NCBI GenBank assembly: GCA_023267635.1
Contig: JAHFMX010000002.1
Coordinates: 21,307-85,306 of the forward strand
Length of the DNA stretch: 64,000 nucleotides
Origin: a bacterium
GTDB lineage: Bacteria; Patescibacteriota; Minisyncoccia; Phycocordibacterales; UBA5272
Reading direction: 5' to 3'
The notes beneath the pieces are model-generated. The model saw only the letters and a program-made list of their open reading frames with translations. It was not told where the DNA came from and searched no databases. The translations under genes and the position numbers were made by a program. Below, one piece after another: positions 17,334-32,546 of this stretch (position 1 is its first letter; each line of letters begins with the position of its first letter).

Positions 17334-17445
17334 CTATGCTTTTTTACCTTGACTTTTTACTGCTTTTATGCTATTATTAAGTAGTCACAATCCGTGGCAC
17401 AATTGTTTCGGCAATGTAAACCGAGTTGAACTTTTACAATGGAGA

Positions 17446-18399
17446 GCTAACATCATGACGATGCTTACTCAGCAAGAAAACGCAACCGAAGGTCAGCAAG
17501 AGCAAATCACCCGTGTTGCTGTCGACGCTGTCCGCAAGGCAGTAGCCGAATACTTCACGAAGCGGACACTGACGAAGGATGGTGCTCAAGCACTTCACGC
17601 AAACGGCAACAACATCGTTGCTGGCCTGCGTGACAAGGTCTTCGCCATGTACGACGAGATCACGGTCACCGACAAGTTCGCAGACGAAGAAATCAGCTCG
17701 AGCTACGTGTACCCGAAAGAGTACCGTGGTGTGAAGCCGATCGGCGCGCAGGTGGACATCTTGGCACAGGCTTTCGGTCTGTCACTCGGTTACACGAGCA
17801 ACTGGATCGAAAAGGTCTTGCCGACCTTGACGCTCCCCGAAGGAGCAGAAGGCTGGTTTGCCATCCCCTCGGTTGAAGCGATCGCAAAACGCCACTTCCC
17901 CGAAGTGACGGATCCTGTGGATCGCTATTGCCGTGCTGTCGAGCTCATCCTCGAAAAGCTCGGCAAGTCACGGTCGTTCTACAACTATCGTGAAGGCGAA
18001 ATCACGCCCCGTCAACTGCGTCAGCACGCACGGACCATCCACGCTCTCGACATCATCGTCGAACAGCAGAAGGGTGACATCCTGATCGTGCCTGCTCAGT
18101 TTGGAATGGGTCACCGTGGTCGCTCCGTTCGCCGTGCTCGTGAATGCTTCAAGGCAAACGAGTTCGGTCTCGGCGCTCTCGCTGTCGGCTCCATGGTGCT
18201 TACCCATCCCGAACGCTTCGTTCGTTGGGAACAGCTCCACACCGACTGCGCAGGTGACGAGTTCGCTCCGGGTGCGGTTGGCGAGTTCTGGGGCGCCCCG
18301 ATCTTCAGCTTCAGTGACGGCAAGCTCGAGTTCGGCACCGACGATGTGTCGTATGCGTGCGGCTACTGCGGTTCCGCCTCGGGGTTTCTTCCGCTGTGA
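17446..18399 (+). CDS. DGR target (variable) protein; C-terminal ~44 aa encoded by the VR; high-GC foreign-looking gene
   Basis: RBS GGAGAG before the ATG at 17446. GC is about 58% against about 38% locally. The 3' end is homologous to the TR with adenine-specific mismatches. Confidence 0.7.
   Translation, partial: ANIMTMLTQQENATEGQQEQITRVAVDAVRKAVAEYFTKRTLTKDGAQALHANGNNIVAGLRDKVFAMYDEITVTDKFADEEISSSYVYPKEYRGVKPIGAQVDILAQAFGLSLGYTSNWIEKVLPTLTLPEGAEGWFAIPSVEAIAKRHFPEVTDPVDRYCRAVELILEKLGKSRSFYNYREGEITPRQLRQHARTIHALDIIVEQQKGDILIVPAQFGMGHRGRSVRRARECFKANEFGLGALAVGSMVLTHPERFVRWEQLHTDCAGDEFAPGAVGEFWGAPIFSFSDGKLEFGTDDVSYACGYCGSASGFLPL
18262..18393 (+). repeat. DGR variable repeat (VR)
   Basis: 132 bp aligned to the TR. 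Every mismatch falls at a TR adenine (e.g. TR AAC against VR GGC/AGC/GAC/TGC/TAC). The shared 3' GC-rich end is ctacggttccgcctcggggtttcttccg. Confidence 0.8.
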
Positions 18400-18454
18400 T
18401 CCTTGGATCTTGGGGACTTGATTCTTTTGTTCCCTTGATTCTTGAATCCTTGAA

Positions 18455-18484
18455 CGGCTCGCTTGCGAGCCGTTTTTCTTTTGG
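18455..18484 (+). terminator. Hairpin/terminator downstream of the VR
   Basis: gaacggctcgc-tt-gcgagccg followed by ttttc. Confidence 0.5.
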
Positions 18485-18762
18485 CCGAAGGCCTCCGCAT
18501 ATTTTATATATTTGATATACTTATTAACGAGTCTAGGTTAGTGTATAGTAGTTCACGGATTGCTATCACCGAACTCTTTCTCCTATGAGAAATCACAATC
18601 AGATTTATAGTGATTACGGTTACTATAACAGTGTTGTTGCTCTAGAGATACTGCTTACTACTCTTCAAGACAAATGAGTAATCATGTTGTCAGATAAAAT
18701 ACAGAATCATGATTCATGTGCAATATCATGTTTCGTGGTTTGTGACATAGATGGAAAGTAGT

Positions 18763-18894
18763 AAAACTCCGGATGCGGATGGCAAGTTCTGGAACGCCCC
18801 GATCTTCAACTTCAATGACGACAAGCTCAAGTTCAACACCAACGATGTGTCGAATGCGAACGACAACTACGGTTCCGCCTCGGGGTTTCTTCCG
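18763..18894 (+). repeat. DGR template repeat (TR)
   Basis: Adenine-rich counterpart of the VR (aaaactccggatgcggatggcaagttctggaacgcc...). An incidental in-frame 54-codon ORF (18751-18915) overlaps it. Confidence 0.8.
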
Positions 18895-18913
18895 AAGTAT
18901 CGATTAGCAAAGT

Positions 18914-18943
18914 AAAAGGTATCCTGTTTAGGATACCTTTTAA
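18914..18943. terminator. Bidirectional terminator between TR and avd
   Basis: aaaaggtatcc-tgttt-aggatacctttt. Confidence 0.5.
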
Positions 18944-18944
18944 C

Positions 18945-19295
18945 TTACTTAGACATACTTGATTTTATCCACCCACCAAGCATTCGACCAATCTCATCAA
19001 TTATTCCTTGAAGTAAAGTATATTTCTTCATATCAAGACTTTTATTTTCTTTCATAAGACGAATAAAAAATCTTAATATATTAAGTCTTATGCTTGCCCT
19101 CTCAAGTAGATTATTCTTCTTTTCTTTGTAAGAATAGCTCGCTTCCAAAATAAGTTCTAAGATTTCGATGATTATATTTTCTGATCGTTCATATATCGAA
19201 AACCTTTCGTGTTTTGGGACTAATAATCTATATTCGTGGAATAGTTTATAGAGTTCGTGAATCTTTCTAAGTATAGGTACATCATTATCATTCAT
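18945..19295 (-). CDS. avd: DGR accessory variability determinant (Avd)-like four-helix-bundle protein
   Basis: 116 aa. Avd-like ..LYKLFHEY...ERFSIYERSENIIIEILELILEASYS...IRLNILRFFIRLMKE..IDEIGRMLGGWIK. Confidence 0.65.
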   Translation of the reverse strand: MNDNDVPILRKIHELYKLFHEYRLLVPKHERFSIYERSENIIIEILELILEASYSYKEKKNNLLERASIRLNILRFFIRLMKENKSLDMKKYTLLQGIIDEIGRMLGGWIKSSMSK

Positions 19296-20348
19296 ATGCG
19301 AGTTTTTACTAATCTATTTTCTAATTTGGTTAATATAGAAAACCTGTTTTTTGCATGGGAAGGGTTTAAAAAAGACAAGAAGAAAAAAGAAGATATTTTA
19401 GAGTTTGAGAAAATTATGGAAACTGAGATCTTTAAACTTCATAGAGAACTAATATCTTACACCTATCGACATAGTGGGTATATTGGATTTTATATATCTG
19501 ATCCAAAACGAAGACATATACATAAAGCAATTGTTCGAGATCGTATTTTACATCATGCAGTCATGAATATTCTTTATCCCCTTTACGATAAGATTTTTAT
19601 TCATAACTCTTTTTCTTGTCGAGTGGGCAAAGGTACACATAAAGGTGTTGATGCTATGAGATCCATGCTTTTAAAAGCAAGTAATAACAATACGAAAAAT
19701 GTATTTATTTTGAAGTGCGATATACAGAAGTTTTTTGATTCAGTTGATCATAATATCTTAATTCGTATTCTTCGTGAAAGAATTAAAGACGAAAAACTTA
19801 TGAATCTTCTTATTGAGGTGATCGACAGTTTTGATGGTAGTCAATCGAATCTTTTTGAAAGAAAAGGTCTTCCAATTGGCAATCTTACTTCTCAACTCTT
19901 TGCAAATGTTTACATGGACAAATTTGATCAATATGTGAAGCATGTACTTAAAGTTAAATACTATGCTCGATATACAGACGATTTTGTTGTAATTAGTGAT
20001 AATAAAGATTACTTATTATCACTAATTACAACCATTTCACTTTTTCTGAGTCATGAGTTAAAGCTCACGATACATCCTAAAAAGATTGAGATCCGTAAAT
20101 ATTCTCAAGGTATTGATTTTCTTGGTTATGTGGTTTTCCCTTATCATACGCAGGTTCGCAAGAGAACACTAAGGAGAGTAAGGAGAAAGTTGGATATTAA
20201 GGTGAAGTTATACAGAGCAGATAAGATTGATAAAACAAAACTGGACGCCACTCTTATGTCATATTTAGGGGTTCTTTCTCACGCAAACACTTACAGGTTT
20301 TCTGAGCAGATAAAAAATGAATACTTTTTATCTGCTAACGGTAATTAG
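19296..20348 (+). CDS. DGR-type reverse transcriptase
   Basis: N-terminal ENLFFAWEGFKKDKKKK. Motif 4 LPIGNLTSQLFANVYMD is the DGR hallmark I/LGxxxSQ. YTDDFVV matches YxDD. The start is taken at 19296; an alternative ATG lies at 19257. Confidence 0.85.
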   Translation: MRVFTNLFSNLVNIENLFFAWEGFKKDKKKKEDILEFEKIMETEIFKLHRELISYTYRHSGYIGFYISDPKRRHIHKAIVRDRILHHAVMNILYPLYDKIFIHNSFSCRVGKGTHKGVDAMRSMLLKASNNNTKNVFILKCDIQKFFDSVDHNILIRILRERIKDEKLMNLLIEVIDSFDGSQSNLFERKGLPIGNLTSQLFANVYMDKFDQYVKHVLKVKYYARYTDDFVVISDNKDYLLSLITTISLFLSHELKLTIHPKKIEIRKYSQGIDFLGYVVFPYHTQVRKRTLRRVRRKLDIKVKLYRADKIDKTKLDATLMSYLGVLSHANTYRFSEQIKNEYFLSANGN

Positions 20349-20391: not shown

Positions 20392-22695
20392 CTATAACCT
20401 TTCAGAAAGTGAATCCCACCCATGAAAAGATTGAGAATATGAATATGTTTTGTTACTATTTATTTTCCACCCATTAGGACCATCCTGTACTGCAATGCCA
20501 CCAGTAAAACCTTTTTTTCCTTTTAACCATTCTTGCAGTGCTTCCGCTTTATATTTTGTATCATTGATTTCCGCAGTCGTTCCTTTTTTGGTATCTATGA
20601 TTAATATATTATTTTTTGTTTGTATTATCCAGTCAGGATAAAATAATTTCTCTCTGTTTTCATCTTTGTTGTAATATGAAATTGAAAAATATTCACTACC
20701 TGAGTCTCCGTTTTTATACCACCATAAGACATTTTTATGTTCTTCTAAAAACTTAATAAAATCTTTTTCATTATCTTCTCCTTTATATTCTTTTTCAATA
20801 TAAAATGGACTCATGGCACTTTTCTTCACTTTCATCTCTTCATATTGATCAGTAAAGAATAATGTATCTCGTGGTATTTGTATTGTCTCGATACGCTTAG
20901 CACGCTCAGACTTCTTGTTTACTTCAAGTTCACGAATTGGTCTATATTTTTCTAATGCTTTTCCAATAATAGGTGACAATATACTTGATGTCTTAATAAA
21001 ATCATTAACGATAACCCTATATGCATTTTGTCTACTAATACTTAATGACTCCATAAACCAAACATTAAGGGCAGTTTTTAATTTACCCCAAGAACGCTCA
21101 GGTGCAAACTTCTTATTTTCATCAATCTGTTTTGAAATTAGACTGAAACAATAAAGATTATAAAGTTTTTCTAAATCATTTTGAGAGATTTCCTGATCAT
21201 GACTACTTCCTTCGGAAAGCAACTCCTCTTTAAAGTTATCATAATCGTCAATTTCAACACCAACAATAAGACCATTTGTCACAGATGGGTTAGTATCAAG
21301 ATTCTTTTGTAATAATTTTTTAGAAATTGTAGATGTATTGTCTTTTTCTTTGATATCAAAATACTCGTTTGCTATTTCCTTAAATGTATTTTGGAAACTG
21401 TCACCTAAGTCGTTATAATCCGACCTGCTCATAAAAACAGATTCAAGATCAATTGGTGTAATTTCAGATTTTCTGTGACTTGGAAATATCGCAGGGCGAT
21501 TACCTCCTGGTGTCTTTGCATAACCAGTTAAAACTTCATTTCTTTTGTAATTTGTATAGAGATACCCAAGATTAAGTTCAGGTTTCGCAAAATGTGTCCC
21601 TAGTGGCATACGCAAAATTCTTCCAACTGTTTGAATTGCAAAAGTTGGATTCTTAATCTCACGAAACATTACAAGAACACTTGCTCGTGGACAGTCCCAA
21701 CCTGTTGCGGCGGCTTGTTTGAATAACAAAAACGAAACAGGTGAAGTATTATTGGTGATATCTTCAAGATTTACTTTGTCTTCTGATAACCAAATAGCAA
21801 TTTCATGATCAAATACACCTTTTTCTTTTAGAGAGTTAATAATAAAATCTTGTTTAGTGCTACCACTTGTAGTTTTGTCTGCTTTATCGTCATTAGGAAG
21901 TTGAATTAGAACAAGAGGATTGATTTCTATATTTAACTCCTTGTAAAGGGATATAATTTCATTTCTTTTGTTAAAAGCAAGAGAAACAAGTATTTCATCT
22001 TGATCTACACCTTTATAGTCTCGTGATTCGAGATCTTCTTCTGTTTGAAATATTATTTTTTCTTTTATAAGACCCGCACTTATAACCACTTCACGATTTA
22101 CTTCTACTGTTGCAAAACCTGTATTTTGAGGAGTAGCAGAAACACCTATAATAATTCTAGGTTTAATAACATTATTAATTAAGTCGCTTGCTAGAATAGT
22201 AGATGAAGCAATATGTTCCTCATCGATAATAAGTATTACCTCTCGTTTAACATTGTGAGTATTATTAAGATACTCATCAAAGGTTGTATTTGATTCTCCT
22301 TCAGTTCTTAACTTTCTATTGTCTTTTGCTTTAGAAACTAATTTTTGCCAATTAATAAAAAATATTCCATTTCTAGGAATTACCCCGTCTCTCAAATTAT
22401 TCATATCAATAATAGGGTTTTCACTTGCTCCTCCATAGTACGCAAATAGTTTTTCTTTCGATTGCATTGCCAAAGAGTCAGAGTTAGTAATCCAAACAAA
22501 GCCAACATCAGCATGAGAAAATCTTGGGTCAGATACAATGTCCCGCAAGAACTGAGCCATCATTATTGTTTTACCTGATCCTGTTGGAGATTTGAAAGTT
22601 AGATTGATATTGTGATCACCAAGTTTCCAAAGAGTTAAAAATTTTTCTTTTAACTGGGATATTGCGGTCTCTTGAAATGGTTTAAGTGTAAACAT
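20392..22695 (-). CDS. res: Type III restriction enzyme Res subunit (helicase-nuclease)
   Basis: 767 aa. Walker A KSPTGSGKT, DEEH box IIDEEH, VSATPQN motif III. It is directly downstream of mod. Confidence 0.8.
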   Translation of the reverse strand: MFTLKPFQETAISQLKEKFLTLWKLGDHNINLTFKSPTGSGKTIMMAQFLRDIVSDPRFSHADVGFVWITNSDSLAMQSKEKLFAYYGGASENPIIDMNNLRDGVIPRNGIFFINWQKLVSKAKDNRKLRTEGESNTTFDEYLNNTHNVKREVILIIDEEHIASSTILASDLINNVIKPRIIIGVSATPQNTGFATVEVNREVVISAGLIKEKIIFQTEEDLESRDYKGVDQDEILVSLAFNKRNEIISLYKELNIEINPLVLIQLPNDDKADKTTSGSTKQDFIINSLKEKGVFDHEIAIWLSEDKVNLEDITNNTSPVSFLLFKQAAATGWDCPRASVLVMFREIKNPTFAIQTVGRILRMPLGTHFAKPELNLGYLYTNYKRNEVLTGYAKTPGGNRPAIFPSHRKSEITPIDLESVFMSRSDYNDLGDSFQNTFKEIANEYFDIKEKDNTSTISKKLLQKNLDTNPSVTNGLIVGVEIDDYDNFKEELLSEGSSHDQEISQNDLEKLYNLYCFSLISKQIDENKKFAPERSWGKLKTALNVWFMESLSISRQNAYRVIVNDFIKTSSILSPIIGKALEKYRPIRELEVNKKSERAKRIETIQIPRDTLFFTDQYEEMKVKKSAMSPFYIEKEYKGEDNEKDFIKFLEEHKNVLWWYKNGDSGSEYFSISYYNKDENREKLFYPDWIIQTKNNILIIDTKKGTTAEINDTKYKAEALQEWLKGKKGFTGGIAVQDGPNGWKINSNKTYSYSQSFHGWDSLSERL

Positions 22696-22699
22696 ATAA

Positions 22700-24406
22700 T
22701 TATAGTCGATTAATTTCTTTATAAACTTCTAGTATTGGTTCAGGAATATCCTCAATCCTTATATGTTTAGTGCTATATTCATTTCGGTATTCGTTTTTAC
22801 CCCAACCAAAAATATACAAAACTATCTGAAGTTTCTTTTTCTCAAGTAATGTAATTAGTTCCTTTAGTTTCTCTTTGTTTTCTTTGAAGTAAATTGCAGT
22901 AACTTTATTGTCACCCTCAAAAATCTGCCACCATTCTGTTTTCTCAATTTCGTTTAAAGTATTTTCTTTAACGGCTATCATTTCACCAGCTTGATAAGTT
23001 ACTTTAATTTTTGCTTCATCAGATATTTTGTGTAACTTTTCAATATCTACAAGATCAGTTTTGTAATATGACAAATTACCATTAAGCCCTTCAATTTTTT
23101 CTTCCTTCTTATTCTTATACCCCTTAATTACTCGTTTAATTCTTTCATAAGTAACCTCTTCACAAATTTTATTTTCATTATTAGTACAAAGAATAAATTT
23201 ACGATTACCACCATCTTGCTTATTAAGTTCAAGAACTGCATGACCTGTTGTTCCTGATCCTGCGAAGAAATCAAGAACGGTCGAATTTTTATCTGATGTT
23301 ATTTTTAATGCATCTTGTACAGCATAAACAGACTTAGGAAAACTAAAACTATTTTTATCTAAAATTTTATCCAATAATTGTGTACCATACCTCGTAGCAT
23401 TATATTTAGGTTTTATCCAATGTGTTTTAATAATCTGCTGTTCTCTATATTTTCTATAGATAGTAGGTTTGTTATTTTCAACTAAGATGACCACATCACC
23501 ATTTTTAAGATTTTCTTCAAAAGTATCCTTACTAGTATTCCATGTTCTCTCTTGCCCGCTTTCGGTTATTGGTAATACTTCTACATATCCATTTTTCTTA
23601 TCTAAACTTATATCTTTTGTTTTAAGGTCTACATAAATTGGATACCAACCATTTGGCTTATTTATTTTTAAACTAACATCCCCACCACCTCTTCTAAGAT
23701 ATTCCTCTAGTCTATACTTACCAATATCGTCCACTAAATTAAACTTTTCTGCATCATCTTCGTCAAGGGGTATATTTTTAATTTTTCCAACTAAATCATT
23801 TTTTGAATAAAATAAATAGTATTCATTGGTTGGATTAATAGATTTTGAGAATTGGCGACCTTCTGGTTTATGTACAACCGTAACAACTCCAGTTCTGTTA
23901 TTTTCTCCAAATATTTCATCACACAATGTACCTAAATAAAATAATTCATAATGGTCAATTGCTATTATTATAAAACCTTTCTCTGATAAGAGGTTTCTTG
24001 CAAGTATCAACCTATTTTCCATGAAAGATATCCATTTACTATGTCTCCACTGATCATTTGAGTCTACATAATCATTATTATATCTCCAATCACTAGACCC
24101 AGTATTGTATGGTGGATCAATGTAAATGACATCAATCTTACCTTTGTGTGTATAATTCAAAACAGAAAGAGTGTGGTAGTTATCTCCTTCAATGAGTAAA
24201 TTATTTAAATTACTTTCACCATCTATAATCTTCTTACTTTTAACTTCTTTAAGTACTGGAATATTTTCTTTACAAGAAAAAACAACATCCTCTGGTTTTC
24301 TTTCCCAGACAAGTCCAAACTTTTTTCTAGATTTAAGATTATTATTCTCAACCTCTAATTCTTTAATACGAGCTGTTAACTCTTGTTGTGTTTTATATTG
24401 AGACAT
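22700..24406 (-). CDS. mod: Type III restriction-modification DNA methyltransferase Mod subunit (N6-adenine/N4-cytosine class)
   Basis: 568 aa. Motif IV IDPPYNT, motif I FDFFAGSGTTGHA, and an N-terminal coiled coil. Confidence 0.85.
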   Translation of the reverse strand: MSQYKTQQELTARIKELEVENNNLKSRKKFGLVWERKPEDVVFSCKENIPVLKEVKSKKIIDGESNLNNLLIEGDNYHTLSVLNYTHKGKIDVIYIDPPYNTGSSDWRYNNDYVDSNDQWRHSKWISFMENRLILARNLLSEKGFIIIAIDHYELFYLGTLCDEIFGENNRTGVVTVVHKPEGRQFSKSINPTNEYYLFYSKNDLVGKIKNIPLDEDDAEKFNLVDDIGKYRLEEYLRRGGGDVSLKINKPNGWYPIYVDLKTKDISLDKKNGYVEVLPITESGQERTWNTSKDTFEENLKNGDVVILVENNKPTIYRKYREQQIIKTHWIKPKYNATRYGTQLLDKILDKNSFSFPKSVYAVQDALKITSDKNSTVLDFFAGSGTTGHAVLELNKQDGGNRKFILCTNNENKICEEVTYERIKRVIKGYKNKKEEKIEGLNGNLSYYKTDLVDIEKLHKISDEAKIKVTYQAGEMIAVKENTLNEIEKTEWWQIFEGDNKVTAIYFKENKEKLKELITLLEKKKLQIVLYIFGWGKNEYRNEYSTKHIRIEDIPEPILEVYKEINRL

Positions 24407-24429: not shown

Positions 24430-24582
24430 TATAACATTAAAAATGGGTAGCCGAGTGTCTACCCATAGGTTGGAGTCGCGAGGAGTCCAATCATGGAACT
24501 CAGCTACCCGTTTTTACCCACGATTGGTAAAACGAAGTAGCCTCGCGACTCTATTATCAAAAGAGAAACCTATGGGTAGACT
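24430..24582. repeat. Large imperfect palindrome with nested inverted repeats between mod and the recombinase
   Basis: gtctacccatagg (24457-24469) pairs with cctatgggtagac (24568-24580), and ggagtcgcgagg pairs with cctcgcgactc. Additional arms are present. Confidence 0.5.
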
Positions 24583-24621: not shown

Positions 24622-25941
24622 TCACAAAATAGTAATGACCTTATTTTTAAGTGTAATTTTAGAGTTTAAACATCTTAAGAATTCTCTCTTTTCTTCTATG
24701 TCTCCTTCAACCAAAATAAACTTCGCATAGTTTCTTATATCAATATCTTTTACTGTAACTTGGGCTTTTGTGCCTAAAAGTGTCTGTTGAAATAACTTAA
24801 ATCTTTTAACTTCACTAGCGATCTTTTCTCTCATGGGTACTGTTTTAATATCAATATCGTCCATTAGGTTTTTTAATTGTTCAAGCAAATCTTCCTCGTT
24901 AATAAACCCACAAGTACAATTCTGGTCTCTGGTTTTTGTACACTTATAATAAACATATCTATGAACATTTCCATTTTGTTGATGTTTGAATTTCTCGTCT
25001 GCTGTTATACCTGACCCACAAAGTCCGCAAGTCATGATTTTAGTAAAAGCAAATTCTTTTTGTCCTGATTTTGGTTGTAAAGTTTGACTCTTTACATTCT
25101 CTTGAACTAAATCAAAGAGTTCTTTTGTGATAATTGGTTTATGTGATCCGTTATACCATTTCCCAGATTTAGCAGGAAATTCAAACCGACCATAATATAT
25201 AGGATTTTGGAGGAGCCTATAAAAGTTTCCTAAACTTAGATGTATTCCATACTCCGATTTAAAATCAATATCATATCTAAGCCAGTGCCAAACTTTCTTT
25301 CCAGACCAGCCATCGTAAGCAATCTTTTCAAACATTTGCTTAATGAAAGGTGCACGATCTTGATCAATAACTAATTCACATTTTTGATCCATTCTTTTAA
25401 ATTTTGTATATCCTGTCGGTGGGCGACATGGCCATAACCCCATCTCTACTCTTGCTCTTAGTCCACGCTTTACATTGATACTCTTGTTATCATTTTCAAG
25501 TTTTGCTTGAGAACATAAAATCATCAATAAAAATTTTTCGTTAGGAGAGTTAGAAAAAGTTTGTCCATATGTCTGTATATGAATTAATTTTCGTTGATCC
25601 ATCAAATCAACAAGCGACCCGAGGTCGCCTGCATTTCTACTTAATCTATCTGGCGCCCATGTCAGCACACCGTTAAATTTTCCTTGATCTATTTCTTGTA
25701 ATAATTGTTTATATACTGGTCGTTGACCTGAAGCTTTAGCACTATGTGATTCTCGTTTTACTTCTACCACATACAATCCTAAACGCTCTGCTATCGCACT
25801 CATTTCTTTAATTTGTGAATCAATCGACAATGCTTGCATTTCATCTGACTCAGTTGATTTTCTAGCATATAGACAATATTTAACTCTTATTGGTGAAATT
25901 GTTATATTGCTTTCAATTCGTCCAATTGTGTTTGTTTCCAT
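24622..25941 (-). CDS. Large serine recombinase (phage-type integrase/resolvase)
   Basis: N-terminal YARKSTESDEMQALSIDSQ catalytic motif. Recombinase domain, then a zinc ribbon (CGLCGSG...YYKCTK) and a C-terminal coiled coil. Confidence 0.8.
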   Translation of the reverse strand: METNTIGRIESNITISPIRVKYCLYARKSTESDEMQALSIDSQIKEMSAIAERLGLYVVEVKRESHSAKASGQRPVYKQLLQEIDQGKFNGVLTWAPDRLSRNAGDLGSLVDLMDQRKLIHIQTYGQTFSNSPNEKFLLMILCSQAKLENDNKSINVKRGLRARVEMGLWPCRPPTGYTKFKRMDQKCELVIDQDRAPFIKQMFEKIAYDGWSGKKVWHWLRYDIDFKSEYGIHLSLGNFYRLLQNPIYYGRFEFPAKSGKWYNGSHKPIITKELFDLVQENVKSQTLQPKSGQKEFAFTKIMTCGLCGSGITADEKFKHQQNGNVHRYVYYKCTKTRDQNCTCGFINEEDLLEQLKNLMDDIDIKTVPMREKIASEVKRFKLFQQTLLGTKAQVTVKDIDIRNYAKFILVEGDIEEKREFLRCLNSKITLKNKVITIL

Positions 25942-26082
25942 ATTATATTAATGACAGAAATCACTAGTTTTGCTAAGTCTATGCAAGACTTAAAAAGCGT
26001 CGCATTGTGATACTTGAAACTCGTAGCAAAATAAAGGTTTTAATGTATCACAATATTTTAGAAATTGAACTGTTGATATCTT

Positions 26083-27585
26083 TTAGTCAACATCTACATA
26101 ATCTGAATGACGAATTATATCGTCATTACTTGTTCCAGGGCCAATCCAAGCAATAAGTATAGTTCCTTCGTTTGAGTGTTTTTCGAGTGTTGCGTTAACA
26201 AGTAGAGAAAAAGCATCCGCCAAGTCATCATGTTTTTCTACACCAAAGCCAACTAATTCTCTAATTAAATCTTCACACCCTTGTCGTGGAAACTTAATAA
26301 TTCCTGACTTAATAGAGGTAGAAGTAAGTGCTAGTCTTGTTCTTTTATCACCCTTTGGTTTTATTGCTTCTGCTTGAATTCCTTGCATTTGTAACATTTG
26401 TGGTAATGCTTCTTGATATGCAACACTTTCAACGAATAACTTATCAGTACTCTTTGGCATTTGAGTAATCTTGATGTTTTTCATGAGTTCAACTTGTGCG
26501 GGAAAGTTTAGTTTCTTGGTTATAGGATTAGGTAAGATATAGATTCGTAATTTATCTCTTCTTCCGTATATACGAGCCATAACAACAGCAGTAAAGTCGG
26601 CTGAATCACTTGCAGATATTGCAAGATCAACACCCGCATAAGTTCCACGATATGCCTTATGTGTAGCAGGAGGTAATTCATCGTAAAACTTTAACCACTC
26701 TGGGTAAATAACTTGGTCATCACTTGGAATAATACGAAGTAAGTATTCTCGTTGCCATGATACCTCACTAGCAACTTTTAGTTTCTCTTCCTCGATAGCT
26801 TCTTTATTTGGATATTTACCTGACCACAAACATATATCGTTTTCATCAAGTAATGGATACTGTTTGAATGTTCCTTTTGCCTTTCCATCCTTAATTTCTT
26901 CTTTTATTCTCATAAGTAGAGAATCTTCATGAAGTAAGTTACCTATAAGAATAAGTCGTGTATTTCTGTCTCCTGTAGGAATTACTTCACCGCGTAGCCA
27001 GTTATATGTTTTGTTTCTTCCTTCTCTTGTTTTAGCAGATTGCACATCTTCCACATCGTCGCAGATTATAAGATCAGGTCTATGTTCATTATGACGAATA
27101 CCACGAATACTTTGTTCAGTAGAAGCAACACTAATTCTTGCTCCATGTTTTTTAAATACCAATGAATATGATCCCCACTCGTCAGATTCCTCTTGGAAAG
27201 GACCGAGGTCTTTCTTGAGAAGATCATTATTCTCTAACTCTTGTTTAATGTTCATCATGTGCTGTTTCGCTTGTGCTCTTGTGTGACAGAAAATTACACA
27301 AAACTTTTTCTGTTGTTTTCCAAGTATCGCCCATATCGGATAAGCAGTTGTCGCCATCGTTGATTTACCTGATCCACGAAAAGCAACGACATATAAGTTT
27401 TCGTTATTACCTTTCTCTAGGAGGTGGATTATCTCTTTCTGGAAATCAGCCGTTTCGTACTTTACATAGTGAGCATAATAGAAATGAAAGAAGTAGAAAA
27501 AACTATCTTTAGTAATGGTGGTTCTAACCAATCTATCTTTCATCATTTTGTTTAGTAATGATTTATCAATGTTGTTATTTTTCAT
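26083..27585 (-). CDS. terL: Phage terminase large subunit
   Basis: 500 aa. Walker A AFRGSGKST, Walker B-like LIICDDVED, and a C-terminal RNaseH-like nuclease region. Confidence 0.75.
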   Translation of the reverse strand: MKNNNIDKSLLNKMMKDRLVRTTITKDSFFYFFHFYYAHYVKYETADFQKEIIHLLEKGNNENLYVVAFRGSGKSTMATTAYPIWAILGKQQKKFCVIFCHTRAQAKQHMMNIKQELENNDLLKKDLGPFQEESDEWGSYSLVFKKHGARISVASTEQSIRGIRHNEHRPDLIICDDVEDVQSAKTREGRNKTYNWLRGEVIPTGDRNTRLILIGNLLHEDSLLMRIKEEIKDGKAKGTFKQYPLLDENDICLWSGKYPNKEAIEEEKLKVASEVSWQREYLLRIIPSDDQVIYPEWLKFYDELPPATHKAYRGTYAGVDLAISASDSADFTAVVMARIYGRRDKLRIYILPNPITKKLNFPAQVELMKNIKITQMPKSTDKLFVESVAYQEALPQMLQMQGIQAEAIKPKGDKRTRLALTSTSIKSGIIKFPRQGCEDLIRELVGFGVEKHDDLADAFSLLVNATLEKHSNEGTILIAWIGPGTSNDDIIRHSDYVDVD

Positions 27586-27590
27586 ATTTG

Positions 27591-27992
27591 TTATTTATTA
27601 ATTTTTCTAATAGACTTTTGTTTTGTAATTGAAGCCAGTTTAAGAGCGTGTCTTACCACTTTTGCTTGAGACGGTGAAAGTGCTTCGTTGTCTTCTTTTG
27701 TCGTTATTTCAATCCTGTCTTTGTAGTTATCATTTCTATGACGCAACCAAAAAGAGATAGCCGAGTAGTTCTTCTCTTTGATCAGAGTAAGTAACTGTGA
27801 TTCACTCATGTCATTAACAAAAGCCACCCCACTTGTAAGTGCTTCATCCATTTTCTTCTCAAATGTTTTATCTTCCTTTCTCCAACGATAGACAGAGTTG
27901 CGAGATAGCCCTGTCTTCTCACATGCAACCTGTACTATCGGCACTTTTGTAAGCTCTTCTAAAAATTGATCTTGTATCTTATTCTTTTTCAT
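27591..27992 (-). CDS. Terminase small subunit-like HTH protein
   Basis: 133 aa. N-terminal HTH (VACEKTGLSRNSVYRWRKE). It is immediately upstream of terL. Confidence 0.45.
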   Translation of the reverse strand: MKKNKIQDQFLEELTKVPIVQVACEKTGLSRNSVYRWRKEDKTFEKKMDEALTSGVAFVNDMSESQLLTLIKEKNYSAISFWLRHRNDNYKDRIEITTKEDNEALSPSQAKVVRHALKLASITKQKSIRKINK

Positions 27993-29259
27993 AGAAGTTT
28001 TTGATTATCTCTGCTTTATTGCCAGTCAGTTTTTCGTAACGACGAATTGCCAAATCACAAAATACAGGTTCAATTTCTAGTGAGTACACCCTGCGACCAA
28101 GTTGTTCTGCACAGATCATAGTGCTTGCAGATCCTGAAAAGGCGTCAAAAATAATGTCACCTGGTTTAGTACAGCGCATAATGAATTTATGATGTAATTC
28201 TGGATTCTTACTTGTAGGGTGTTCCATCTGATTTGATGGAAGTCGCTTGGTTGCCCAGAGGTTTGATATTTCTTCAAGTAACTGGTTACCTGTACTTAAA
28301 TCTTTGTTCTGTATCTCGTTAAGATTTTTAACTAAATCAGATAAGTATGGTGACCCTTTACTTCCATAAACACAAAACTCTGTACACTTGTTAAATGCAA
28401 CAGCTGGGGTCGGTGATGAGTTGTTTTTAACCCAAACATTGAGTCTTCTATTCTTAATACCCAGTTCTATGTATAGCGTTTGAAAAACCCATACCCACGC
28501 TTCATCGCACCAGAATGCTACATGCAGGTCTTCTATAGATACAGCAAGAGCAGAATTCAAGACTTGTCGAATAAATTCCACATATTCTTTTGGTGATTGA
28601 TTGTCATCAAAGGTTCCTCCATAATTGCGAGTATTTCCTACACCTTTATCATACGAAAGCCCAATATTAAATGGCGGGTCACTGTAGATAGAGGTCGCTT
28701 TATGTTCACCGAATAGTTTTTGCACTGCATGTATGTTTGTTGAACTAGCACAGAGTAATTTGTGATCACCCATAATTATGAGATCACCCTTTTGCACAAC
28801 AGGGGTTTTTATTTTCTTTAATTCTTGATCTACATTGAACTTATCGTCTTTAGTGTCTCTATCTTCATCCCAAAACTTCGCAATTTCCATATCAGAAAAT
28901 CCTGCAAACTTTATGAGATCAAGATTAAATGATCTCAACTTTTCAAAATCCCACTCACCATCATTTACATTGCTTTCGAGTGCAATCTTGGTACGCTCAT
29001 CATCTGTGAGCGCACGATCTGGAATAAGAACAGACACTTCCTTAATTGCTAATTGAGTGAGTGCTGTTTTTCTTTGATTACCTGACAAAATTGTATTGTC
29101 GGTATCAACAACAATCACACTATGAAAACCACTTTGAATGATTTTATCTTTTAACTTCTCAAGTGCAACCTTTGTTATTTTCCGTGGGTTTTCTTTCCAA
29201 GGAATAAGATCTTTGACTTCTCGATTTTCTACACGCCATTGAATTTTTTGCATAAGCAT
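27979..29259 (-). CDS. ParB-like nuclease domain fused to DNA N6/N4 methyltransferase
   Basis: N-terminal ParB/Srx fold. Motif IV SDPPFNIG and motif I FDAFSGSASTMICAEQLGRRVYSLE. Confidence 0.75.
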   Translation of the reverse strand: MLMQKIQWRVENREVKDLIPWKENPRKITKVALEKLKDKIIQSGFHSVIVVDTDNTILSGNQRKTALTQLAIKEVSVLIPDRALTDDERTKIALESNVNDGEWDFEKLRSFNLDLIKFAGFSDMEIAKFWDEDRDTKDDKFNVDQELKKIKTPVVQKGDLIIMGDHKLLCASSTNIHAVQKLFGEHKATSIYSDPPFNIGLSYDKGVGNTRNYGGTFDDNQSPKEYVEFIRQVLNSALAVSIEDLHVAFWCDEAWVWVFQTLYIELGIKNRRLNVWVKNNSSPTPAVAFNKCTEFCVYGSKGSPYLSDLVKNLNEIQNKDLSTGNQLLEEISNLWATKRLPSNQMEHPTSKNPELHHKFIMRCTKPGDIIFDAFSGSASTMICAEQLGRRVYSLEIEPVFCDLAIRRYEKLTGNKAEIIKNFYEKE

Positions 29260-29421
29260 TTTATTTAATTAATTTCTAAATAAAATGTATGAAATAGAAA
29301 ATGCCTATTTCACACACGAAATAACAGAAGTCTAAAAAACTTCAATTATCTCTTGCGCGAAATAGGCACGGTCTAGGACGGTACACTATTCAACTTTTTA
29401 CTACGCATGAATAAACTATTG

Positions 29422-29823
29422 TCAGTTACCCTTTTTCATGCCACGAGTTAACCTGCCACCATTTTTACCTTGTAGAAAATGAGTTAGATCATCACCCGCA
29501 TAAATAGGAATACCTCCTTTTGGTAATTGGATTATTACTTTTTCTCCTGCTTTTTCATATTCACCAATAAGTGACATCAACTTTGAGTCACTAGGTAGAG
29601 GTATTTGAAAAGCAACAGTGTTACCTACTGGAGGGGAAACTGTTTTGATAGAAGAGTAAATTCTACCTGGTTTACCAAATCTAAAAGCATTCCTTATTTT
29701 TTCACCAATAGAAAGCGTAGGCTTTTTATTAGAAAGATGTAACTTTATATCGGTTAATTCAATAACTCTATACTTCATACCATCACGCATTTCTGTTGGT
29801 TTTACATTAATTTGGTAATCCAT
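29422..29823 (-). CDS. Hypothetical protein
   Basis: 133 aa with no recognisable motif. It sits between the ParB-methyltransferase gene and the divergent repressor. Confidence 0.3.
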   Translation of the reverse strand: MDYQINVKPTEMRDGMKYRVIELTDIKLHLSNKKPTLSIGEKIRNAFRFGKPGRIYSSIKTVSPPVGNTVAFQIPLPSDSKLMSLIGEYEKAGEKVIIQLPKGGIPIYAGDDLTHFLQGKNGGRLTRGMKKGN

Positions 29824-29911
29824 ACTTATATTATTCCATGGGTGGTGTATAATGTCAAACGATTGTTGATAGTAACTTGCTTTTCTAATTACACTTTACT
29901 ATAATAGTAAA

Positions 29912-30550
29912 ATGCATTTAATTCAAAAACAACTAATAGACCTAATAGCGACTAATCCAAATTTCGGAAAGCTAAGCTTAAGATCAATAGCGAAAGAAGT
30001 AGGTGCTGAAGGCAAGCCACAGACCGCTAAGTACCATTTACAAGAACTGGAAAAAGCTGGGTTTATTCAAATGAATCTAAAAGAAGGAATAATTAAACTA
30101 GTTAAAAAAGGTACAAATATATCTAGTAAAAGCCCTATCTTTTCAATACCAGTAGTAGGGTCTGCTAATTGTGGTTTACCAACAATATTTGCTGAACAGA
30201 ATATAGAAAACTTTTTAAAAGTTTCTTCCAGTATGTTACCAAAAAAGAAAAGTGGCTTATTTGCACTAATTGCAGACGGCGACAGTATGAATATGTGTAA
30301 CATAAACGGTAAGAGTATAGAAAGTGGAGATTTTGTACTAGTAGATAGTGAAGATAGGGTTTACAAAGATAAAGACATTGTAGTAGCTGTCGTTGATGGT
30401 TTAGCAACAATAAAAGAGCTTCATAGAGACCTAAAGAACAACAGAATAGTCTTAAAAGCTCTTTCAACTAAAAAGTATCTACCTATTTATCTAGGTGAGG
30501 ATGATGATTTTATCATAAATGGTAAAGTCGTGGGTATTATTAAAAGTTAA
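29912..30550 (+). CDS. CI/LexA-like repressor (HTH + S24 peptidase domain)
   Basis: N-terminal HTH (LRSIAKEVGAEGKPQTAKYHLQELEKAGFI). C-terminal GDSM serine and a downstream Lys (ATIKEL). It is divergent from the upstream gene. Confidence 0.7.
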   Translation: MHLIQKQLIDLIATNPNFGKLSLRSIAKEVGAEGKPQTAKYHLQELEKAGFIQMNLKEGIIKLVKKGTNISSKSPIFSIPVVGSANCGLPTIFAEQNIENFLKVSSSMLPKKKSGLFALIADGDSMNMCNINGKSIESGDFVLVDSEDRVYKDKDIVVAVVDGLATIKELHRDLKNNRIVLKALSTKKYLPIYLGEDDDFIINGKVVGIIKS

Positions 30551-30566
30551 TTAAATAAAAAATATT

Positions 30567-30977
30567 ATGTCACATCCAAGAGTATTTATAAGTTTCGATT
30601 TTGATCACAATGAAACAGATAAGTATCTGTTTGCAGGTCAAGCAAAAAATTCAAAAACACCATTTAATATTGAAGACTGGTCTTCAAAATCTCACCTTCC
30701 ACAAAATCAATGGGAGAAGTTAATCGAAGATAAAATCAACAGATCAAATATGGTTGTTGTTCTCGTGGGCAAAAGTATGGGGTCAGCTGGCGGAGTAGTA
30801 AAAGAAATTGCTTTTGCTAACAAAAATAATGTTCCAGTTTTTGGTGTGTATGTTGATGGAGCAAACACCAATAGCACTTTGCCAACAGGACTAGCAAGAA
30901 ACCGAGTAATCAGTTGGGATTGGGTAAAAATTGCAAGTGCTATTGATCAATTAATGAATGAAGGTAAAAACAAATAA
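30567..30977 (+). CDS. TIR-like domain protein (DUF1863/ThsB-like)
   Basis: RVFISFDFDHNETDKY...MVVVLVGKSMGSAGGVVKEIAFANKNNVPVFGVYVDG fits the MTH538/ThsB-type TIR-like pattern. Confidence 0.6.
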   Translation: MSHPRVFISFDFDHNETDKYLFAGQAKNSKTPFNIEDWSSKSHLPQNQWEKLIEDKINRSNMVVVLVGKSMGSAGGVVKEIAFANKNNVPVFGVYVDGANTNSTLPTGLARNRVISWDWVKIASAIDQLMNEGKNK

Positions 30978-30979
30978 CC

Positions 30980-31921
30980 ATGAGAAAAGCACTTGTAGTC
31001 GGTATAAATAACTATACGACAGCACCTCTCAAAGGTTGTATTAACGATGCATCAGCATTTGCTACCACAATAGAGAAAAATGGTGATGGGTCTCCAAATT
31101 TTGCAGTAAGACTAGAAACTAATATTTCTACAAAATCAGAATTGAAAACAATGATTAAAGAGTTGTTTGAGGGAGATAGTGATATTGCGTTGCTATATTT
31201 TTCTGGTCATGGTTTTGTAAATGAGATTGGTGGCTACATTGTTACACCTGACCATCAACGAAACGATGAGGGTGTTTCAATGGACGAAATTCTTGTATTA
31301 GCAAATAAATCAAAAGCAAAAGATAAAGTTATTATACTTGATTGTTGTAATTCTGGTGCGTTTGGATCACCAGCAATCACAGGTAGTAATTCTGCACAAA
31401 TAATTGAAGGTGTTGTTATTTTAACAGCAAGTAGACCAGATGAAAGCGCTATAGAGATTAATGGACATGGTATGTTCACAAATCTACTCATTGATGCATT
31501 ACAAGGGGGTGCGGCAGACCTTCGTGGTCATATAACTCCAGGCAGTGTATATGCTTACATAGACCAAGCTTTAGGGGCATGGGATCAGCGACCAGTATTT
31601 AAAACAAATGTTACAAGGTTTACATCTTTGCGAACAATCAATCCACAAGTTTCAGTTGAAGTATTGAGAAAAATTACTGAATATTTTACTACTCCAGAAC
31701 AAGAATACAAGCTTGATCCAACCTATGAGTTTGATAACAAAGATATTGCAGTTCCAGAGAAAGTTGCAATATTAAAGAACTTACAAAAACTAGTCAGCAT
31801 AGGATTAGTTGTTCCTGTTGGTGAAGAGCATATGTATTATGCTGCACAGAATTCAAAAAGCTGTAAATTAACTGCTCTTGGTTACCATTATTGGAGACTG
31901 GTAAAAGAGAGTAAGATATAA
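30980..31921 (+). CDS. Caspase-like (peptidase C14) protein with uncharacterised C-terminal domain
   Basis: Catalytic dyad context LLYFSGHGF (His) and VIILDCCNSGAFG (Cys). About 130 C-terminal residues are unassigned. Confidence 0.7.
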   Translation: MRKALVVGINNYTTAPLKGCINDASAFATTIEKNGDGSPNFAVRLETNISTKSELKTMIKELFEGDSDIALLYFSGHGFVNEIGGYIVTPDHQRNDEGVSMDEILVLANKSKAKDKVIILDCCNSGAFGSPAITGSNSAQIIEGVVILTASRPDESAIEINGHGMFTNLLIDALQGGAADLRGHITPGSVYAYIDQALGAWDQRPVFKTNVTRFTSLRTINPQVSVEVLRKITEYFTTPEQEYKLDPTYEFDNKDIAVPEKVAILKNLQKLVSIGLVVPVGEEHMYYAAQNSKSCKLTALGYHYWRLVKESKI

Positions 31922-31927
31922 CTTAAC

Positions 31928-32158
31928 ATGTTCGACGATAGAAGAAACAATGGAATATTAGGATTCGTTGAGTCCATGTTTAATTTTATTGGATGGCTTT
32001 TGTATATCTTGATTTGGGTTCCAATTAGTTGGATTTTTAGTTTACTTGGTCATTTTATTAAAGATGTGGCAACTGGTGTTTACGGAAAAATCGTTCAATT
32101 GACAGTAGTTTTTGTCTTCGGTTTGTTGGTTTACTTCTTCCAAACACATCTTAAATAG
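31928..32158 (+). CDS. Small 2-TM membrane protein
   Basis: 76 aa with two hydrophobic helices. Its start is 7 nt after the caspase-like gene stop. Confidence 0.35.
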   Translation: MFDDRRNNGILGFVESMFNFIGWLLYILIWVPISWIFSLLGHFIKDVATGVYGKIVQLTVVFVFGLLVYFFQTHLK

Positions 32159-32546
32159 TTACAGTGAGGTGTAATTTTATAAGTCGAGGATGTGTCACTT
32201 TTGTCACTTTTTAATAGACGCACGAGAAGGGTTAAAATGACATACTAAAAATTACTAGAAAAGCTTTGTGGGGTAACGACCCTGCAAGGTTCTATCACGA
32301 GAACCCTCACAATATGAGAAAACCAGCCCCAAAGGCTGGTTTTCTCATATTGTGACCCGTAGGCGAATCAGCAGATTCGTGGCTTGGCCCTCCCGACTTT
32401 TTTAAACTGTATTCAGTTTGTTAAAAGTCGCAGTCCCTTTAGGGAGTCACCTATCCTGCACGGGTGGTTTTTATATTGATTTGTCTCCCGAAAAAGAATA
32501 GGCTATATAGGAGATCAGTTCCTAACAATCAACTTGGAGAAATACC

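What the first reader, a model, noticed from the sequence alone, without database searches (positions are those of the whole stretch)
29912..32158. Repressor-adjacent TIR-like + caspase-like + small membrane protein module: candidate Thoeris-like defence variant
Immediately downstream of a CI/LexA-type repressor, inside a degraded prophage or satellite, lie three tightly spaced genes. The first is a ThsB-type TIR-like protein (VFISFDFDHN...). The second is a C14 caspase-like peptidase with an intact His/Cys dyad (SGHG, DCCNSG) and an unassigned ~130-aa C-terminal domain. The third is a 76-aa two-helix membrane protein. TIR domains generate nucleotide signals in Thoeris and CBASS-like systems, and caspase-like proteases and small membrane disruptors are known abortive-infection effectors. 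The partner for this TIR is neither a SIR2/SLOG nor a Macro protein, so the combination may be an undescribed arrangement. Its position next to the repressor fits a phage-carried superinfection-exclusion locus.
Basis: partly seen in the sequence, partly recalled or inferred. Interest (0 to 1): 0.7.

Follow-up and report, generated by a model that had tools for sequence, protein, structure and literature searches.

The report
Type IV Thoeris on a mobile element
The TIR and caspase-like genes are a new example of an already published anti-phage system (type IV Thoeris), carried next to the repressor of a small phage-derived mobile element in a Patescibacteria genome; the small membrane gene belongs to the element, not to the defence system.

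Summary
Four tightly packed + strand genes encode a LexA/CI-type self-cleaving repressor, a 136-aa ThsB-type TIR protein, a 313-aa caspase-like protease with an extra C-terminal domain, and a 76-aa two-helix membrane protein.

[quoted passage not shown] It is not an undescribed arrangement. The window caspase aligns end to end (44-47% identity) with TIR-adjacent caspases of E. coli. The catalytic residues are intact (TIR E80; caspase H77/C123). A TIR homolog abuts the caspase gene in 51 of 59 loci from many phyla.

The 76-aa gene is real (dN/dS about 0.16) but lineage-restricted: 9 homolog clusters against at least 8000 for the caspase. It also occurs with different cargo and without any caspase. 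It is therefore a gene of the element backbone, not a third Thoeris component.

The module lies in a roughly 7.7-kb element (serine integrase, terminase genes, ParB-methylase, repressor) that recurs in Patescibacteria. In that lineage the repressor stays linked to the TIR-caspase pair. This is a new member of a known kind, and of modest interest.

The parts
30567..30977 (+). thsB: 136-aa stand-alone TIR-domain protein, the predicted sensor and signal synthase of type IV Thoeris. Its catalytic glutamate is E80.
   Evidence: PF08937 at 37.6 bits against a cutoff of 21.2, and PADLOC ThsB at 2.6e-9. E80 is invariant in 56 of 56 caspase-adjacent TIRs. It aligns with E79 of the E. coli plasmid TIR; E79Q abolishes defence in the published PsTIR.
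30980..31921 (+). thsE: 313-aa caspase-like protease effector. It has a caspase domain (about residues 1-210; H77, C123) and a conserved C-terminal domain (about residues 215-313), the proposed signal sensor.
29912..30550 (+). LexA/CI-type HTH + S24 self-cleaving repressor, the first gene of the operon. Predicted cleavage site C87-G88, nucleophile S125, general base K168.
   Evidence: Peptidase_S24 at 5.7e-22 and phrog_4 transcriptional repressor at 6e-22. The alignments to LexA and UmuD place CG, GDSM and TIKEL on the cleavage site and the Ser/Lys dyad. It lies co-oriented directly upstream of TIR-caspase in 10 of the 12 Patescibacteria-clade loci that have upstream DNA, and divergently oriented in the other 2. 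It is absent from the other 56 loci.
31928..32158 (+). tm76: 76-aa membrane protein with two hydrophobic helices, the last gene of the operon. It belongs to the element backbone and is not a Thoeris component.
   Evidence: Intact in 8 copies with dN/dS 0.16. Only 9 homolog clusters. Absent from all 69 caspase loci from named genomes. In L079 it follows a repressor and an MBL-fold (PDC-M48B-like) cargo with no TIR or caspase, and in L084 it has no caspase upstream.
29824..29911 (.). 88-bp divergent control region between orf133 (- strand) and the repressor (+ strand), with candidate back-to-back promoters.
   Evidence: On the - strand, TTGACA-17-AATAAT (11 of 12, with TG) ends 6 nt before the orf133 ATG. 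On the + strand, TATAAT at 29900-29905 lies 6 nt before the repressor ATG. The proposal that both transcripts are leaderless is inference only.
24622..29823 (-). Backbone of the roughly 7.7-kb integrative element: large serine integrase (24622-25941), terminase large subunit (26083-27585), terminase small subunit (27591-27992), ParB-N6/N4 methyltransferase (27979-29259) and orf133 (29422-29823).
   Evidence: PHROGs: integrase 4.9e-63, terL 1.6e-79, terS 3.4e-10, methyltransferase 5.1e-72. Pfam matches. Homology to independent copies (L070-L076) runs from window 24624 to about 32311 and stops there, in different host contexts.
32307..32355 (.). Perfect palindrome (22-nt arms, 5-nt loop) at the right end of the element. 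It could be an attachment site or a host terminator.
   Evidence: Homology to the other element copies ends at 32310-32312. Its function was not tested.

Best explanation

Mechanism, taken from the characterised Pseudomonas and E. coli systems:
- The TIR protein senses phage infection and converts NAD+ into the cyclic nucleotide N7-cADPR.
- This signal activates the caspase-like protease, probably by binding its conserved C-terminal domain.
- The protease then cleaves many cellular proteins after arginine. This stops growth or kills the infected cell, so no phage progeny are released (abortive infection).

In this window the pair is cargo in the immunity operon of a roughly 7.7-kb phage-derived integrative element of a Patescibacteria genome. 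It sits directly downstream of, and is probably co-transcribed with, a LexA/CI-type self-cleaving repressor, much as phage lambda carries rexAB behind cI. It would therefore be expressed while the element is resident.

The 76-aa membrane gene that ends the operon is a gene of the element, not of the defence system.

Shown here: domain identities, conserved catalytic residues, full-length homology to E. coli TIR-adjacent caspases, conserved TIR-caspase adjacency, element boundaries, and the separability of the 76-aa gene.

Inferred: the identity of the signal, arginine-specific proteolysis, abortive infection, co-transcription, and SOS-linked control.
For: - The published definition matches. 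[quoted passage not shown] The published detection rule is a caspase profile plus PF13676 or PF08937 within one gene.
- The TIR passes PF08937.
- The caspase is a full-length homolog of TIR-adjacent caspases on an E. coli plasmid (47%, E = 8e-109) and an E. coli chromosome inside a defence island (44%, E = 2e-94).
- In the E. coli plasmid pair the catalytic residues fall at E79 and C129, the same positions as the published loss-of-function mutants. The aligned window residues are E80 and C123.
- E80 is invariant in 56 of 56 TIRs. H77 and C123 are invariant in 73 of 73 caspases.
- A TIR homolog is adjacent to the caspase in 51 of 59 full-length loci across many phyla.
- A natural single-chain fusion of TIR, TPR repeats, caspase and the C-terminal domain exists (P0387).
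- The C-terminal domain is conserved and restricted to caspase effectors.
- All genes are under purifying selection.
- Element context.
- Metabolites from the E. coli TIR activate the Pseudomonas caspase, so the signal is shared across divergent family members.
Against: - I could not obtain the sequences of the experimentally validated PsCaspase/PsTIR or E. coli 328 proteins, so homology to them is indirect, through E. coli TIR-caspase pairs.
- The window TIR is only about 25% identical to the E. coli TIRs. TIRs associated with type I and type IV systems fall in the same sequence cluster in a published survey, so TIR sequence alone does not predict the signal made.
- The fold of the C-terminal domain could not be assigned.
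- No transcription or function data exist for this organism.
- The promoter and terminator scans are no better than their shuffled controls.
Confidence: 0.85

Rival explanations
1. A three-component Thoeris variant in which the 76-aa membrane protein is a second effector or an ancillary partner of the TIR-caspase pair.
For: The gene starts 6 nt after the caspase stop. It is retained behind the caspase in 8 near-identical copies and in L080-L083. It is under purifying selection. Membrane effectors are known in other Thoeris types.
Against: It has no homolog in any of the 69 caspase loci from named genomes, including Patescibacteria loci with 84-88% identical caspases, which carry other genes in that position. 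It has 9 homolog clusters, against at least 8000 for the caspase. In L079 it follows different cargo, and in L084 it has no caspase upstream. The published two-gene system defends on its own.
Confidence: 0.06
2. The S24 repressor is an integral, DNA-damage-responsive regulator of the defence cassette, comparable in logic to the CapH/CapP or CapK/CapS regulators of immune operons, rather than only the lysogeny repressor of the element. The functional unit in Patescibacteria would then be repressor-thsB-thsE.
For: All 12 Patescibacteria-clade loci that have upstream DNA carry a repressor homolog next to the pair, 10 of them co-oriented directly upstream. In L003 and L004 the cassette lies between host housekeeping genes with no phage backbone within 4 kb. 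Two repressor types (about 65% and about 33% identical to the window's) show the same linkage. The self-cleavage residues are intact. Published work shows that immune operons are often under DNA-damage-responsive regulators (abstracts).
Against: The repressor also heads an operon with unrelated cargo in L079. It faces the packaging genes across a divergent promoter region typical of a phage switch. It is divergently oriented in L008 and L009. No S24 gene accompanies the system in the 56 loci outside this clade. L003 and L004 could be remnants of decayed elements.
Confidence: 0.25
3. The pair acts mainly as an addiction or stabilisation module for the mobile element (a latent toxin that penalises loss) rather than as anti-phage defence.
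For: It is carried on a mobile element. The E. coli 328 operon was slightly toxic when induced.
Against: There is no antitoxin-like partner. The effector needs a TIR-made signal. The family sits in defence islands elsewhere. Published homologs protect against phage T6.
Confidence: 0.05
4. An inactive remnant inside a decaying prophage.
For: The element has no capsid or tail genes.
Against: dN/dS is 0.04-0.06 for the TIR and the caspase. The catalytic residues are intact. The same compact gene set recurs in at least three different host contexts and in several samples.
Confidence: 0.03

Closest known systems
Type IV Thoeris (ThsB TIR + ThsE caspase-like protease; Rousset et al., bioRxiv 10.1101/2024.10.24.620036, cited as Science 2025)
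   Same: [quoted passage not shown] The window caspase is a full-length homolog of E. coli TIR-adjacent caspases. TIR-caspase adjacency is conserved across phyla.
   Different: The host lineage is Patescibacteria. The pair is embedded in a repressor-led operon of a compact phage-derived element. The TIR is very divergent from the E. coli TIRs (about 25% identity). Function and signal are untested here.
Types I and II Thoeris (ThsB + SIR2-SLOG ThsA; ThsB + Macro-TM effector)
   Same: A ThsB-type TIR acts as an infection-triggered signal synthase, and a separate effector is activated by the signal.
   Different: The effector here is a caspase-like protease. There is no SIR2, SLOG or Macro domain, and the only STALD/SLOG matches are weak, sub-threshold hits on the TIR protein itself.
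Phage lambda cI-rexA-rexB, and defence hotspots of prophages and satellites
   Same: Defence genes sit directly downstream of a CI-type repressor and are co-oriented with it, in a mobile element whose cargo differs between relatives.
   Different: The proteins are unrelated. Co-transcription is inferred, not shown. The element is a roughly 7.7-kb terminase-bearing island with no capsid genes, and its nature is unknown.
DNA-damage-responsive regulators of immune operons (CapH/CapP, CapK/CapS)
   Same: A regulator gene sits upstream of an abortive-infection operon, and its activity is expected to respond to DNA damage.
   Different: The regulator here is a single LexA/UmuD-type S24 self-cleaving HTH protein, not a CapH/CapP or CapK/CapS pair. 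The linkage is seen only in the Patescibacteria clade.

Membership tests
Type IV Thoeris | A TIR gene matching PF08937 (ThsB_TIR) or PF13676 (TIR_2) within one gene of the caspase-like gene (the published detection rule) | tested here: met
   PF08937 at 37.6 bits against a cutoff of 21.2. The TIR stop lies 2 nt before the caspase start.
Type IV Thoeris | A caspase-like effector homologous over its full length, C-terminal domain included, to the TIR-associated caspase family | tested here: met
   47% identity (E = 8e-109) and 44% identity (E = 2e-94), end to end, to two E. coli TIR-adjacent caspases. Also 45-88% identity to 59 full-length homologs, of which 51 have an adjacent TIR.
Type IV Thoeris | Direct match to the experimentally validated proteins (PsCaspase, IMG 2600496627; the E. 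coli 328 operon) or to the published caspase profile | not testable with these tools
   The sequences were not retrievable: no supplements are held, no solved structure exists, and accession searches found nothing.
Type IV Thoeris | A catalytic glutamate in the TIR (PsTIR E79Q abolishes defence) | tested here: met
   E80 is invariant in 56 of 56 caspase-adjacent TIRs and aligns with E79 of the E. coli plasmid TIR.
Type IV Thoeris | A catalytic Cys (PsCaspase C129A abolishes defence) and the His of the caspase dyad | tested here: met
   H77 and C123 are invariant in 73 sequences. C123 aligns with C129 of the E. coli plasmid protein.
Type IV Thoeris | N7-cADPR production, signal-dependent arginine-specific proteolysis, and phage protection | not testable with these tools
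   These require biochemistry and phage challenge.
Type I / type II Thoeris | A SIR2-SLOG (ThsA) or Macro-domain effector next to the TIR | tested here: not met
   No such domain occurs in any of the four proteins. The only STALD/SLOG-type matches are weak, sub-threshold hits on the TIR protein itself (Pfam STALD at 15 bits against a cutoff of 24; PADLOC ThsA/STALD at E = 0.016).
   tm76 is absent from 69 of 69 genome loci. It occurs without TIR or caspase in L079 and L084.
EACC1-associated caspases (NCBIfam NF047832) | A score above the curated cutoff | tested here: not met
   106.8 bits against a cutoff of 140.
LexA/CI/UmuD S24 self-cleaving repressors | An N-terminal HTH, an S24 domain with the Ser/Lys dyad, and an Ala/Cys-Gly cleavage site | tested here: met
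   Peptidase_S24 at 5.7e-22. C87-G88, S125 and K168 align with the corresponding LexA and UmuD residues. The LexA equivalog score is below its cutoff (82.7 against 110.95), so this is a CI-like paralog rather than the host LexA.

The most novel reading that the evidence does not exclude
In Patescibacteria, type IV Thoeris may have been captured as a repressor-thsB-thsE cassette whose expression is gated by a LexA-like self-cleaving repressor, which would make it an SOS-coupled or lysogeny-coupled variant. The cassette would be spread by a previously undescribed family of roughly 8-kb integrative elements that carry terminase genes but no capsid genes. These could be phage satellites of candidate-phyla-radiation bacteria, with a swappable defence slot between the repressor and a backbone membrane gene. 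The 76-aa membrane protein could be a superinfection-exclusion factor or a lineage-specific accessory.
Probability: 0.2. Interest if true: 0.5.

Novelty: new member of a known kind. Interest (0 to 1): 0.27.

Why it matters
This finding does not reveal a new defence mechanism, because the TIR-caspase pairing is already characterised. Its value is contextual.

- Type IV Thoeris is present and well conserved in Patescibacteria, ultra-small and mostly uncultured bacteria whose phage defences are poorly documented.
- In that lineage it travels with a self-cleaving repressor on a compact mosaic mobile element, and other candidate defence genes can occupy the same slot.
- Near-identical effectors are paired with TIRs that are only about 30% identical. 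This fits a pattern of fast turnover of the sensor with a conserved effector.

If the repressor does control the cassette, it would be another example of DNA-damage-linked control of an abortive-infection system.

Tried and rejected
- **PDB sequence searches.** The caspase gave only a weak metacaspase-4 hit, and the TIR gave no significant TIR hit. No type IV Thoeris effector structure is available.
- **First structure model.** The 34-sequence alignment gave a C-terminal domain with pLDDT below 50, so I discarded that model. A second model from a 73-sequence, two-clade alignment was good.
- **Pfam on the isolated C-terminal domain** at E up to 10 found nothing.
- **Sequences of the validated proteins.** No supplements were held, no paper cites the E. 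coli accessions, and no source name identified Pseudomonas sp. 1-7.
- **Metagenome scan with the repressor.** It returned mostly distant gut LexA proteins. Only L088-L091 were related, and they were not informative.
- **Phage database.** Only 2 hits to the caspase.
- **Rfam.** Nothing in the island.
- **att sites.** No convincing direct repeats flank the element.
- **Promoter and terminator scans.** The counts were no better than those of shuffled controls, so operon signals rest on gene spacing and inspection only.
- **EACC1-type caspase and gasdermin-type readings.** Rejected. The EACC1 score is below its cutoff, and there is no gasdermin neighbour.
Full report
**1. The observation**

The window has four co-directional + strand ORFs: 29912-30550 (212 aa), 30567-30977 (136 aa), 30980-31921 (313 aa) and 31928-32158 (76 aa). 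They are separated by 16, 2 and 6 nt.

Pfam gives:
- Peptidase_S24 (5.7e-22) plus weak HTH matches for the first protein.
- ThsB_TIR PF08937 for the second (3e-9, 37.6 bits against a curated cutoff of 21.2). TIR_2 is below its cutoff.
- Peptidase_C14 for residues 1-181 of the third (2.1e-20, 73.9 bits against 21.4).
- Nothing for the fourth.

PADLOC agrees: ThsB at 2.6e-9 and a generic 'caspase' model at 4e-19. The 76-aa protein has two hydrophobic segments.

**2. What the TIR-caspase pair is**

[quoted passage not shown] Its main points are these:
- The TIR makes N7-cADPR.
- The signal activates the protease, which cleaves many proteins after arginine and aborts infection.
- The mutants PsTIR E79Q and PsCaspase C129A abolish defence.
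- The detection rule was a caspase profile plus PF13676 or PF08937 within one gene.
- A later preprint names the effector ThsE.

**3. Membership tests**

I could not retrieve the validated protein sequences, so I tested membership indirectly.

- *Conserved adjacency.* The window caspase belongs to a very large family conserved over its full length: at least 8000 hits, and the best 120 are 70% identical or more. In 69 loci from named genomes across many phyla, I ran an iterative profile search seeded with the window TIR. It found a TIR homolog directly adjacent to the caspase in 51 of 59 full-length loci, upstream or downstream, and some loci have two TIRs.
- *Homology to E. coli systems.* One of the two validated systems came from E. 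coli. An E. coli IncI plasmid carries a 124-aa TIR followed by a 317-aa caspase. The window caspase aligns with it end to end at 47% identity (E = 8e-109), and the TIRs align at 26%. A chromosomal E. coli pair, in a defence island with a Pycsar effector and a KwaB-like gene, is 44% identical over its full length.
- *Catalytic residues.* In the plasmid pair the catalytic residues fall at E79 and C129, the same numbering as the published mutants. The aligned window residues are E80 and C123. E80 is invariant in 56 of 56 caspase-adjacent TIRs. H77 and C123 are invariant in 73 caspases from two clades.
- *Natural fusion.* An 836-aa protein fuses TIR, TPR repeats, caspase and the C-terminal domain in one chain. 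This independently links the two activities.

I therefore file the pair as type IV Thoeris. The biochemical features remain untested.

**4. The effector's C-terminal domain**

A first AlphaFold model from a shallow alignment was unusable in this region. After I added a divergent clade, the model reached pLDDT 87.2, with 91-97 across residues 220-313.

An exhaustive search with the 99-aa domain found 493 representative clusters. Nearly all full-length hits have the same architecture of about 315 aa, with the domain at roughly 220-325. Apart from the TIR fusion, the outliers look like truncated or chimeric gene calls. The domain is thus a conserved, effector-specific module. That is consistent with the published sensor hypothesis but does not prove it.

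**5. The 76-aa gene**

It is a real gene. It is intact in all 8 copies, its substitutions are conservative, and its dN/dS is 0.16, against 0.04-0.06 for its neighbours.

It is not part of the system:
- It has no homolog in any of the 69 genome loci. That includes Patescibacteria loci with 84-88% identical caspases, which carry a second TIR or unrelated ORFs in that position.
- It has only 9 homolog clusters in 5.8 billion proteins.
- In L079 a 68%-identical copy ends an operon made of a repressor, an MBL-fold protein (PADLOC candidate PDC-M48B, 4e-25) and two unknown genes, with no TIR or caspase. The same contig shares the window's ParB-methylase at 91% identity.
- In L084 a homolog has no caspase upstream.

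It behaves as a backbone gene that marks the end of a variable cargo slot.

**6. Context**

Homology to independent copies (L070-L076) runs from window 24624 to about 32311 and stops there, in three different host contexts. The element is about 7.7 kb and contains:
- a large serine integrase (phrog_95, 4.9e-63),
- a terminase large subunit (phrog_38, 1.6e-79) and small subunit,
- a ParB-N6/N4 methyltransferase,
- orf133,
- and, across an 88-bp divergent region, the repressor, thsB, thsE and tm76.

It has no capsid or tail genes. Its relatives are mosaic: the packaging genes are conserved, the repressor alleles diverge (about 33% or about 65% identity), the TIRs are exchanged (about 30% identity beside 84-88% identical caspases), and the cargo varies. 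The nearest named relatives are Patescibacteria MAGs.

**7. The repressor**

Alignments to LexA and UmuD place a Cys87-Gly88 cleavage site (the same Cys-Gly as in UmuD), Ser125 (GDSM) and Lys168 on the catalytic machinery. It scores below the LexA equivalog cutoff and matches phage repressor families.

A profile search shows S24 genes next to the pair in all 12 Patescibacteria-clade loci that have upstream DNA. Ten are co-oriented directly upstream and two are divergent. None occurs in the other 56 loci. In L003 and L004 the cassette sits between host housekeeping genes with no phage backbone within 4 kb.

In this lineage the repressor and the pair therefore persist as a unit. This may be because the operon's promoter lies upstream of the repressor. 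[quoted passage not shown]

**8. Verdict**

The class assigned (Thoeris-like defence carried on a phage-derived element) is right. The novelty claim is wrong, and the three-gene module is not supported. This is a new member of a known kind in an under-studied lineage, with a modestly interesting mobile-element and regulatory context.

Noticed in passing
window 17368-20348: A complete diversity-generating retroelement lies just left of the island. The target ORF (17368-18399) has its variable 3' end at 18266-18393, and the template repeat is at 18767-18894. All 18 mismatches fall on template adenines (14 A to G, 4 A to T). A bAvd accessory gene (18945-19295, - strand; PF22296, 8e-18) and a reverse transcriptase (19257-20348; RVT_1, 2.6e-27) complete it.
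   Followed up: partly
window 20392-24406: A type III restriction-modification pair (res 20392-22695, mod 22700-24406, both on the - strand) sits in the same low-GC stretch but outside the 7.7-kb element. The island therefore stacks a retroelement, restriction-modification and Thoeris.
   Followed up: partly
window 24622-32311: The element carries an integrase, both terminase subunits, a ParB-methylase and a repressor, but no capsid or tail genes. The same compact set recurs in at least three host contexts. It may be a phage satellite of Patescibacteria rather than a decayed prophage.
   Followed up: partly
L079:1686-3865: In a related element the slot between the repressor and tm76 holds an MBL-fold protein that matches the PADLOC candidate defence gene PDC-M48B (4e-25), plus two unknown genes, in place of TIR-caspase.
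   Followed up: partly
L080:3680-3919; L004:3335-3616: A DUF2188 protein (PADLOC PDC-S16, 3e-21) is inserted between the repressor and the TIR in some cassettes. A recent preprint lists DUF2188 as a putative TIR-associated effector.
   Followed up: no
L039:1462-1917; L049:5029-5520; L054:4985-5494: Three loci have a full-length ThsE-like caspase with no TIR homolog in the locus, followed by an '8xMP' octameric membrane protein (PF24838, about 1e-41). L054 also has a LuxR-type response regulator upstream, as does L058, which lacks the 8xMP gene. This may be a distinct caspase + membrane-protein arrangement.
   Followed up: no
P0387 (836 aa, metagenomic): A single-chain fusion of TIR, TPR repeats, a caspase domain and the ThsE C-terminal domain.
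   Followed up: partly
L001-L007 compared with window 30567-30977: Caspases 82-88% identical to the window's are paired with TIRs only 30-35% identical, and some loci have a second TIR downstream. This points to exchange of the sensor beside a conserved effector.
   Followed up: partly
window 32307-32355: A perfect palindrome with 22-nt arms lies exactly where homology to the other element copies ends. It could be an attachment site or a host terminator.
   Followed up: no
window 24457-24581: A nested inverted repeat (15-nt perfect outer arms, GC-rich inner arms) lies between the type III mod gene and the integrase. It has no Rfam match.
   Followed up: no
window 29824-29911: Back-to-back promoter-like sites each end 6 nt before the divergent start codons of orf133 and the repressor. 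This suggests leaderless transcripts, as for lambda cI. Inspection only.
   Followed up: no
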